From assembly GCF_035084215.1 (NCBI RefSeq), contig NC_090362.1, positions 5,828,001-5,892,000 of the forward strand: a stretch of 64,000 bases of DNA, given 5' to 3'. The notes beneath the pieces were generated by a model. It did no database searches. It saw only the letters and a list, made by a program, of their open reading frames with translations, and was not told where the DNA came from. This document shows positions 33,401 through 36,400 of this stretch, one piece after another (positions within the stretch are counted from its first letter, which is position 1; each line of letters begins with the position of its first letter). This stretch comes from Heptranchias perlo. Lineage: Eukaryota. The position numbers and the translations under genes are program-made.

Positions 33401-36400
33401 CTAGTTTCCAGGTCCCAGGGGTGAGAATGCACCACCCCATGCCTGTGGTTTCATAGTTTCACATCGAGTTTGCAAAAGTGTCAGAGGGTGACGTCTTTCG
33501 GATGAGACTTTAAACCAAGGCCCCGTCTGCCCTCTCAGGTGGATGTGAAAGTTCCCATGGCACTATTCGAAGAAGAGCAGGGGACCTCTCCCTGGTGTCC
33601 TGGTCAATATTTACCCCTCAACCAACATCACTAAAAACTGATTATCTGGTCATTGTAATATTGCTGTTTGTGGGATCTTGCTGTGTGAAATTTGGCTGCC
33701 GGGTTTCCTACATTACAATAGTGACTACACTTCAAAAGTACTTCATTGGCTGTAAAATGCTTTAGGACGTCCTGTGGTTGTGAAAGGCGCTCTTTGGATA
33801 TGGGGATGGTGCCAGTGGACTGGAGGGTTTCGAATGTTACATCGCTGTTCAAAAAAGGGGAGAGGGATAAACCCAGTAACGTCAAGCCAGTGGTGGGGAA
33901 ACATTAATCCGAGACACAATTAATTGTCACTTGGAAAAATATGGGTTAATGACTGACAGCTGCACAGATTTGTTAAAGGCAAAACTTGATTGAGTTCTTT
34001 GATGAAGTAATGGAGAGGGTTGATGAGGGCAGTGAGGTTGATGTGTATATGGACTTTCAAAAAGTGTTTGATAAAGTAACACATAATAGACTTGTTGACA
34101 AAATTGAAGCCCATGGGATTAAAGGGACAGTGGCAGCATGGACACAAAATTGGCTAAGGGACAGAAAGCAGAGAGTAGTGGTGAACGGTTGTTTTTCAGA
34201 CTGGAGGAAAGTATACAGTGATGTTCCCTAGGGGTCAGTATTAGGACCACTGCTCTTTTTGATATATATTAATGACCTGGACTTGAGTACACGGGGCGTA
34301 ATTTCAAAGTTTGTCGATGACACGAAACTCAAATGTAGTGTAAACAATTTTACAACACCAAGTTATAGTCCAGCAATTTTATTTTAAATTCACAAGCTTT
34401 CGGAGGCTACCTCCTTCCTCAGGTGAACGATCATCGTTCACCTGAGGAAGGAGGTAGCCTCCGAAAGCTTGTGAATTTAAAATAAAATTGCTGGACTATA
34501 ACTTGGTGTTGTAAAATTGTTTACAATTGTCAACCCCAGTCCATCACCGGCATCTCCACATCAAATGTAGTGAACAGTGAGGAGGATAGTAGTAGACTTT
34601 AGGAGGACATAGACAGACTGGTGAAATAGACAGACCCATGGCAGATGAAATTTAATGCAGGAAAGTGTGAAGTAATGCATTTTGGTAGGAAGAATGAGGA
34701 GAGGCAATATAAACTAGATGGTACAAAGGGGGTTCAGGAACAGAGAGACCTGGGGGTGCACATAGACCAATCTTTGAAGGTGGCAGGACAAGATGATACG
34801 GATGTCAAAAAAACATATGGGATCCTTGACTATATAATTAGAGGCATAGAGCACAAAAGCAAGGAAGTTTTGCTAAACCTTTACAAATCACTGGTTAGGC
34901 CTAAGCTGAAGTATTGTGTCCAATTCTGGACACCACATTTTAGGAAGGATGTCAAGGCCTTGGAGAGGATGCAGAGGAGATTTACTAGAATGGTACCAGT
35001 AATGAGGGACTTCAGTTATGTGGAAAGACTGGAGAAGCTGGGATTGTTCTCAGAGCAGAGAAGGTTAAAGGAAGAATTAATAGGGTGTTCAAAATTATGA
35101 GAGGTTTTGCTAGAATAAATAGGGCGAAACTGTTTCCACTGACAGGAGGGTCAGTAACCAGAGGACACAGATTTAAGGTAATTGGCAAAAGAACCAGAGG
35201 GGAGATGAGAATTTTTTTTAAGCAGTGAGTTATGATCTGGAATGCACTGCCTGAAAGGGCGGTGAAAGCAGATTCAATAGTAACTTTCAAAAGGGAATTG
35301 GATAAATACTTGAAGGGGAAAAATTTGTAGAGCTATGGGGAAAGAACAGGGGAGTGGGACTAATTGGATAGCTCTTTCAAAGAGCTGGCACAGGTGCAGT
35401 GGGCCGAATGGCCTCCTGTGCTGTATGATTCTATGAAATCCAAGTTCTTTTTCTCAATTACTTGATAATTGTACAGAGCATTCAAATATATTGGGAGAAA
35501 TTTCCCCTGTTTGCACTTTATGCACACTTACAATTTAGTTCTAAATAATAAAACGTGGAAATCTCCAGTTGCAGTAATGGTGCCTTATATATTCACAGGT
35601 ATCTCCTTCAGTATCAGGAACCAATCCCATGTGAGCAGCTGGTCACAACACTCTGTGATATTAAGCAGGCTTACACACAGTTCGGAGGTAAGGTAGAGTA
35701 AAGCACGTTTCAAACAAATAGGCAAATGGTAATGTAATCTTCATTTAAAAAAAAAAGAATCCCAAATTTAGCTTAGTCTAAAAGAAAAAATCTTTCCTTA
35801 TAAATGTATGATTAATCTGGTTTCTAGAGCATACTATAACCTTAGTGCAACTTCACATTGCTGATTGCAAATGAATGATAAATTCTTTTACAAGGATGAA
35901 GCTGCTGTTTTATGGTGGGAAGTTGTGCGATTCCTGTCCTCAGTCATTCTGAGCTGCAAATACGTGGTTTACAACAACATTTCCTGGCTTTGGATAAAGT
36001 TCACTTAATCTGAATGATTTATTTGAATGCAGCTTATTTATCAATGTTATGGTGGCAAACAGCTACTCAAACAAATAGAACTAATGCATGATTAAAGTGC
36101 CAGCTTGGCTCAGTCGTAACACTCGCCTGAGTCAGAGGGTCATAGATTCAAATCCCTTACCTTTAAAATAAGCTCTTCTAAGATGACCGTGGGGAGAATG
36201 GCTTTCGTTCCTTTGGCTTTACATGAGGTGTACAGGATAAAGCCAGTTACAGTTGATTATCTGGCTATGTCTGTTAGTGATCACCAAGCGCAACCAAGTG
36301 CTAGAAACAATTATCACTGGGCTATTAATTTACAACTAAACCAATCACAATAGGCTCGGCACAGACTGCACTTGTCAAACACCAATAGTGGCCATTGACA

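What the first reader, a model, noticed from the sequence alone, without database searches (positions are those of the whole stretch)
34329..34572. Perfect 185-bp palindrome carrying hammerhead ribozymes on both strands inside a PSMA4 intron
Seen: 92-bp arms with a 1-nt loop (centre 34432), a 12-bp TSD, and an intact minimal type I hammerhead (CUGAGGA, GAAA, CUU triplet, stem I UUCAC/GUGAA, palindromic AAGCUU stem III). Known: Penelope-like elements carry such minimal hammerheads, which cleave as dimers, and often insert with inverted termini. Inference: a very recent insertion. In the PSMA4 pre-mRNA the upstream antisense arm would sequester the ribozyme in a 92-bp hairpin, so an essential gene could tolerate it.
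Basis: partly seen in the sequence, partly recalled or inferred. Interest (0 to 1): 0.7.

Follow-up and report, generated by a model that had tools for sequence, protein, structure and literature searches.

The report
Mirror-image stub of a Penelope retrotransposon
This perfect DNA palindrome in a proteasome-gene intron is one of thousands of similar stubs of a Penelope-type jumping gene, likely built on landing when both cut DNA strands copied the front end of the element's RNA; the architecture is known and the copy looks ordinary, but the family records how such elements insert.

Summary
In detail: 93-nt perfect arms around base 34432, a 12-bp duplication, a minimal hammerhead motif on each strand, inside a spliced PSMA4 intron (where it splits an old LINE). 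It is not special: the 39-nt motif occurs 5,781 times exactly and 3,022 loci have the same back-to-back arrangement. The autonomous partner was found (about 900 aa, RT plus GIY-YIG, Neptune-type cysteine linker). In 80 of 82 sampled pairs exactly one arm has the tail; either arm can be the longer; short arms end mostly 30-42 nt below a TATA box, not at the ribozyme cut site. Best reading: two cDNAs primed from the two strands of one staggered cut copy the RNA leader and are joined head to head. Hairpin sequestration of the ribozyme is physically predicted but is a by-product, not a shown reason for tolerance; cleavage is untested and leaves no genomic footprint. The scan has noted this architecture many times on other DNA (214 notes), also in this genome. 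Known kind; low interest.

The parts
34329..34340 (+). Left copy of the target-site duplication (12 nt; last 2 nt also fit the left arm)
   Evidence: (D2)
34341..34431 (-). Tail-less inverted arm: element positions -129 to about -39/-37 (0 = base before the ORF start codon of the full element)
34389..34427 (-). Minimal type I hammerhead motif, minus-strand copy
   Evidence: mirror of 34437-34475
34432..34562 (+). Tail-bearing arm: element positions -130 to 0, the leader between the predicted start site and the ORF start codon
34437..34475 (+). Minimal type I hammerhead motif; predicted cut between 34470 and 34471; no stable stem III as a monomer
   Evidence: core numbering from PMC4209133 and established knowledge
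34526..34562 (+). 37-nt 'tail' present on one arm only; ends just before the ATG of the RT-GIY-YIG ORF in full copies
34561..34572 (+). Right copy of the target-site duplication (first 2-3 nt also fit the element end)
33913..34328 (+). Decayed LINE (RT fragment; CR1-like by recall), part upstream of the insertion
   Evidence: RVT_1 E 3.7e-4, below cut-off
34573..35436 (+). Same decayed LINE, part downstream of the insertion
32635..35598 (+). PSMA4 intron (GT..AG, 2,964 nt) that holds the insertion; flanking exons 32557-32634 and 35599-35687

Best explanation
The palindrome is a short head-to-head insertion of an abundant endonuclease-bearing Penelope-like retrotransposon, likely built at the target site by two separate reverse-transcription events, one from each strand of a staggered cut, and is likely a dead-end by-product with no role for PSMA4. 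Shown: family, partner ORF, two discrete 3' ends about 35 nt apart, one per arm, 12-14 nt duplications, 5' ends piling just below a TATA box. Inferred: the RT-GIY-YIG protein binds its RNA near the start codon, cuts both strands about 12 nt apart, primes one cDNA at the tail end and the other 35 nt upstream; on RNAs that start at the pLTR promoter both cDNAs run off after at most about 137 nt; their ends are trimmed by a few bases and joined. The hammerhead is carried along uncut; in the pre-mRNA the two arms are predicted to zip into a 92-bp hairpin that prevents the ribozyme fold.
For: 5,781 exact copies of the 39-nt motif, control 0; 3,022 loci with two motifs back to back within 19 nt, control 9; 47,045 exact matches of a downstream 32-mer. 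Linked ORF of 902 aa with RVT_1 E 3.3e-10 and GIY-YIG E 4e-4, just under cut-off. 3' ends of 122 arms: 59 at -40..-31, 55 at -3..+11, 5 run on into the ORF, 3 elsewhere. 80 of 82 short pairs have exactly one tailed arm, 0 have two; tailed arm longer 34, tail-less longer 32, equal 14; duplication 12-14 nt in 75 of 80. 13 of 16 long pairs that could be read cleanly show the same build up to 5.5 kb, tail-less arm longer in 9. 64 of 92 short arms start at -141..-121; the commonest start is TATA+30 in subfamily A (-137, 7 of 48) and TATA+31 in subfamily B (-130, 6 of 33), so it follows the TATA box, not the hammerhead. Genome-wide, 28% of arms that reach -137 are lost within the next 2 nt (2,720 to 1,948) against 12% over the following 5 nt (1,709). 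In vitro a Penelope protein cuts and extends both strands and starts at two sites that bound the tail (PMC11167929).
Against: The start site is inferred from a TATA-like motif and end positions; no 5'-end RNA data were available. Only 13 of 48 and 8 of 33 short arms start at TATA+30..32; the rest need trimming or early run-off, and this copy itself starts at -130/-129. The samples are the first places on one contig, include a triplicated and a duplicated locus, and about half the pairs were picked by a pattern that fixes subfamily and centre length. Arkhipova's group read such junction palindromes as self-priming on an antisense template (PMC3846280), which was not tested directly.
Confidence: 0.75

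Rival explanations
1. Fold-back: one cDNA primed at the tail end snaps back on itself and is copied, giving the inverted arm.
For: Arms usually share subfamily variants: 10 of 79 pairs differ at a common allele against 80% of random pairs; 1-4 nt overlaps at the centre in 31 of 82 pairs. Self-priming was proposed in PMC3846280 (passages).
Against: The tail-less arm is the longer in 32 of 80 short pairs and 9 of 13 long pairs, by up to 2.5 kb; a copy of the first strand cannot exceed it, and a tail-less first strand cannot supply the tail. Four pairs differ by the G/C variant at hammerhead position 7, common in the family.
Confidence: 0.1
2. The palindrome is a non-autonomous mini-element (MITE-like or retrozyme-like) that moves as a unit, processed by its hammerheads.
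For: Thousands of similar-sized copies; uniform duplications; retrozymes derive from PLE pLTRs (bioRxiv 10.64898/2026.07.22.740005, passages).
Against: Centre junctions differ from locus to locus among the 50 listed; sizes run on from about 100 bp to 5.5 kb with the same ends; no pile of ends at the cut site: 45,808, 44,320, 42,543 matches for patterns starting at -86, -91, -99, a loss of 0.5-0.7% per base, near the 0.4% per base expected from arm-to-arm decay; 0 of 92 short arms start at -91.
Confidence: 0.07
3. One reading: the ribozyme would cut PSMA4 pre-mRNA, and the copy persists because the antisense arm sequesters it.
For: Whole insertion folds into one hairpin at -165.8 kcal/mol; stem II pairing probability falls from 0.99 (arm alone) to about 1e-18. 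The motif keeps its pairing across variants, so it is under constraint in active elements.
Against: The dimer in the active fold scores -20.7 kcal/mol, worse than two separate monomers or the alternative dimer at -33.2; such motifs are reported inactive alone, weak as dimers (PMC4209133) and dependent on the element's protein (PMC11167929). Half of the sampled arms (60 of 122) are not in short pairs. The hairpin arises whatever the host gene.
Confidence: 0.08

Closest known systems
Endonuclease-positive Penelope-like elements with inverted pLTR, optional 30-40 bp tail and TSD (Pen2a_Av of Adineta vaga, PMC3846280; D. virilis Penelope, PMC2377424; overview PMC8557442)
   Same: Head-to-head inverted pLTR, tail on one end only, short target duplication, TATA and Inr-like motifs in the pLTR, partial tandems, RT followed by GIY-YIG.
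   Different: Here the whole unit is 222 bp without ORF and occurs thousands of times; the tail ends at the start codon instead of reaching into the ORF; duplications are 12-14 nt against 8-10 nt cited for Adineta.
Neptune / Nematis clades of PLEs (PMC8557442)
   Same: C-x4-C-x2-C linker directly before the GIY-YIG-like motif, C-terminal endonuclease, DKG motif (read from the translation).
   Different: No tree was built, so Neptune and Nematis are not told apart.
Minimal type I hammerheads of metazoan PLEs (PMC4209133)
   Same: Short stem I, extra base before stem II, G-C closing pair, tiny palindromic stem III; opposite-strand pairs 100-700 bp apart were already noted in Schistosoma.
   Different: Stem II is 5 bp (7-8 bp in Schistosoma); copies here are highly uniform; cleavage untested.
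Poseidon of Anolis carolinensis, PAc (PMC11167929)
   Same: Two start sites of reverse transcription that bound the tail; both strands cut and extended in vitro; no sign of ends at the ribozyme cut.
   Different: Other clade; in PAc the sites lie inside the ORF and the ribozyme overlaps the start codon, here both lie in the leader. That paper does not, in the parts read, tie one site to each arm of an inverted pair.
L1 twin priming (recalled, no call)
   Same: Both strands of the target prime cDNA, giving an inversion inside one duplication.
   Different: In L1 the two pieces are adjacent, non-overlapping parts of the RNA; here they are two overlapping copies of the same part.

Membership tests
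EN+ Penelope-like element | Single ORF with RT followed by GIY-YIG endonuclease, linked to this terminus | tested here: met
   L034 and L031: 902 and 788 aa, RVT_1 E 3e-10; GIY-YIG E 4e-4, 21.1 bits against a cut-off of 22.6; termini 99-100% identical to the window arm
EN+ Penelope-like element | pLTRs from tandem or partial-tandem arrangement | tested here: met
   Head-to-tail 3.08-kb units at C1:4,460,965-4,469,175 and others
EN+ Penelope-like element | Inverted 5'-truncated copy with a 30-40 bp tail at one end only | tested here: met
   37-nt tail in the window; 80 of 82 pairs
EN+ Penelope-like element | RT groups with PLE clades in a tree | not tested
   No phylogeny was run
Neptune/Nematis clade | CX2-5CxxC linker upstream of GIY-YIG | tested here: met
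   Seen in all ORF translations; definition from PMC8557442
Minimal type I hammerhead ribozyme | Core CUGA-N-GA, GAAA and NUH with stems I and II | tested here: met
   Sequence; among 218 arms position 7 varies G/C while the other core bases change only in a few rare arms
Minimal type I hammerhead ribozyme | Pairing kept by variation | tested here: met
   Stem II G-C to A-U in 25 arms and G-U forms, stem I wobble forms; few independent events
Minimal type I hammerhead ribozyme | Rfam hammerhead model hit | tested here: not met
   No hit up to E 10; expected for a motif without stem III
Minimal type I hammerhead ribozyme | Self-cleavage as monomer, dimer or with protein | not testable with these tools
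   Needs an assay; no genomic footprint of cutting
Non-LTR retrozyme | Head-to-tail tandem array of short hammerhead units | tested here: not met
   The copy is a single head-to-head pair
MITE-like unit element | Copies share one internal junction and symmetric termini | tested here: not met
   Centres vary; termini asymmetric by the tail

The most novel reading that the evidence does not exclude
These stubs are a genomic record of the unsolved Penelope insertion step: a dimeric RT-endonuclease cuts with a fixed 12-nt stagger, assigns one start site to each strand, copies the capped leader of its own mRNA to the start site, and in a minority of events (roughly 5-13%) uses two different RNA molecules for the two arms; the hammerhead is not cut on the template.
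Probability: 0.5. Interest if true: 0.55.

Novelty: new member of a known kind. Interest (0 to 1): 0.24.

Why it matters
The single copy is ordinary. The family matters modestly: how Penelope elements make their inverted ends and one-sided tail is open in the papers read, and thousands of short copies give a ready test set (strict one-tail rule, fixed stagger, ends at the promoter, mixed-template pairs). Thousands of perfect hairpins of about 90 bp in introns would also be a large source of double-stranded RNA; inverted Penelope copies gave siRNAs in flies (PMC3681739, passages).

Tried and rejected
Rfam scans of the region and of the single arm: no hammerhead hit; two microRNA hairpin models matched below cut-off only because of the palindrome. 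DNA search of the own genome gave nothing because common words are skipped. No run on record as RNA held the stretch; four were only guessed to be RNA. Empty-site allele: none among the joints shown for the same-sample run or three related organisms, but the table was cut (90 rows hidden) and the flanks are repeats, so presence/absence is unresolved. Pile of ends at the ribozyme cut site, a lead from earlier notes: not found. Shared rare A-to-G changes in both arms, another lead: 2 shared rare alleles against 46 unshared in 79 pairs, neither A-to-G; too little power to say more. Extra G at arms that start at -137 (cap copy): G precedes in 11 of 17 paired loci by my count, but the partner arm supplies it, so only suggestive. 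In one search three arm-to-arm distances are inflated because the fixed window ran past the shorter arm; they were not used. No tree, structure or protein database search was run. Selection for sequestered over solo copies in genes could not be tested without an annotation.

Full report
Observation. The repeat finder and a script give two arms of 93 nt, 34339-34431 and 34433-34525, fully complementary around C34432, and a 12-nt direct repeat at 34329-34340 and 34561-34572. A minimal hammerhead motif lies at 34437-34475 and mirrored on the other strand; Rfam does not detect it. Between the right arm and the right repeat lie 37 nt that have no mirror. The flanks are two halves of one decayed RT-coding LINE (the label CR1-like is recalled). 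The host gene is proteasome subunit alpha type-4 on the + strand; contigs of two runs guessed to be RNA join the flanking exons over a GT..AG intron 32635-35598, with the insertion 1.7 kb from the donor and 1.0 kb from the acceptor. The genome has 3.25 Gb; its repeats look like those of a cartilaginous fish (recalled, not tested).

Family. The 39-nt motif matches 5,781 times exactly, a downstream 32-mer 47,045 times, and two motif starts face each other within 19 nt at 3,022 loci, control 9. [quoted passage not shown] In full copies the start codon follows the unmirrored 37 nt directly; I number that last base 0. Tandem 3.08-kb units occur. This is an endonuclease-positive Penelope-like element, Neptune- or Nematis-like by the linker (PMC8557442, passages). 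At 96% likeness the element is nearly absent from contigs of three related organisms that share the flanking LINE, so the burst looks lineage-specific.

Anatomy across copies. I collected 253 arms from 161 loci and the window; 122 come from the first 6 Mb of contig C1 chosen only by the downstream 32-mer, the rest by motif or palindrome patterns. In the 122, 3' ends fall at two sites: 59 at -40..-31 and 55 at -3..+11; 5 run into the ORF. Of 82 short head-to-head pairs 80 have exactly one tailed arm and none has two; the two exceptions are one duplicated locus. The tailed arm is longer at the centre in 34, the tail-less in 32, equal in 14; duplications are 12-14 nt in 75 of 80, microhomology included. 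Of 16 long pairs 13 could be read cleanly; all have one tail and a 12-14 nt duplication, and the tail-less arm is longer in 9. Inverted pLTR, one-sided tail and duplication are described (PMC3846280 and PMC2377424, passages); the tail was mapped in vitro to two start sites of reverse transcription, with both strands cut and extended (PMC11167929, parts 1-2 of 4; supplements not seen, and its Fig. S2 may bear on the pairing rule).

Where the arms stop. 92 of 122 arms are short; 64 start at -141..-121. Two subfamilies share a TATAAAT motif but differ by 7 nt in its distance to the hammerhead. The commonest start is -137 in one (TATA+30, the A of an Inr-like TCATTT) and -130 in the other (TATA+31). 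Nested exact patterns give 2,720, 1,948 and 1,709 matches for starts at -137, -139 and -144: a sharp edge. At the predicted ribozyme cut (-91) there is none: 45,808, 44,320 and 42,543 for -86, -91, -99. I infer that short copies are run-off copies of the RNA leader, trimmed by up to about 12 nt on joining; the window copy (-130 and -129, blunt join) fits. Against: only about a quarter of short arms start within TATA+30..32, and no RNA 5' ends were available.

One RNA or two. Arms of a pair differ at a common allele in 10 of 79 pairs, against 80% of random pairs and 72% within the same stem I class, so both arms mostly come from one source. One of the ten is misregistered by an indel. Four pairs differ by the G/C variant at hammerhead position 7, where about 0.2 would be expected from the background of 0.8% per site (my arithmetic): a minority probably used two RNAs.

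The ribozyme. Among 218 arms the core varies commonly only at position 7; stem variants keep pairing, including G-C to A-U in 25 arms. This fits the minimal motifs of PMC4209133 (parts 1-2 of 4), inactive alone and weak as dimers. The active dimer fold scores -20.7 kcal/mol, less stable than alternatives; in the whole insertion the hairpin (-165.8) abolishes stem II. So sequestration is predicted, but it comes with every pair and nothing shows that PSMA4 needed it.

Verdict. A young-looking, ordinary stub of a known kind of element. The twin-priming and run-off reading was written down before the scan's notes were opened; those notes hold 214 similar findings in at least 32 genomes and one in this genome, which is no independent support. 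Searches for a published account of one start site per arm or of run-off at the promoter found none (listings only, apart from the papers named), in a library that lacks most subscription journals. Also seen as passages: bioRxiv 10.64898/2026.07.22.740005 and PMC3681739.

Noticed in passing
L034:5208-5268 and G000:C1:4,435,440-4,441,723: Some loci hold an inverted piece that starts at about -35 and runs on into a full ORF, so a tail-less arm end can be followed by another copy; nested or re-targeted insertions into the element's own terminus.
   Followed up: no
G000:C1:4,460,965-4,469,175 (L084): Nearly three head-to-tail 3.08-kb units of the second subfamily, ending tail-less.
   Followed up: partly
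G000:C1:5,671,461-5,671,869 (L103) and 5,168,594-5,168,824 (L096): Pairs with 177 nt or about 21 nt of foreign sequence between the arms (LINE-like in L103): capture at the centre junction.
   Followed up: no
window 7994-8473: Tandem array with a 60-nt period, about eight copies at 90-93% identity.
   Followed up: no
window 965-1750 vs 14919-15704; 2220-4096 vs 9328-11215: Two long inverted near-duplicates (98% over 786 nt; 95% over 1.9 kb), probably young mobile copies.
   Followed up: no
window 51062-51116: A second, imperfect 55-nt palindrome (91%), unrelated to this family by BLAST.
   Followed up: no
window 37585: Contigs of two RNA-guessed runs of the same sample lack 8 nt here, while the DNA contigs do not: possible heterozygous indel.
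   Followed up: no
window 32053-32129, 33198-33340, 37280-37386: Other short, very high-copy repeats in PSMA4 introns, not identified.
   Followed up: no
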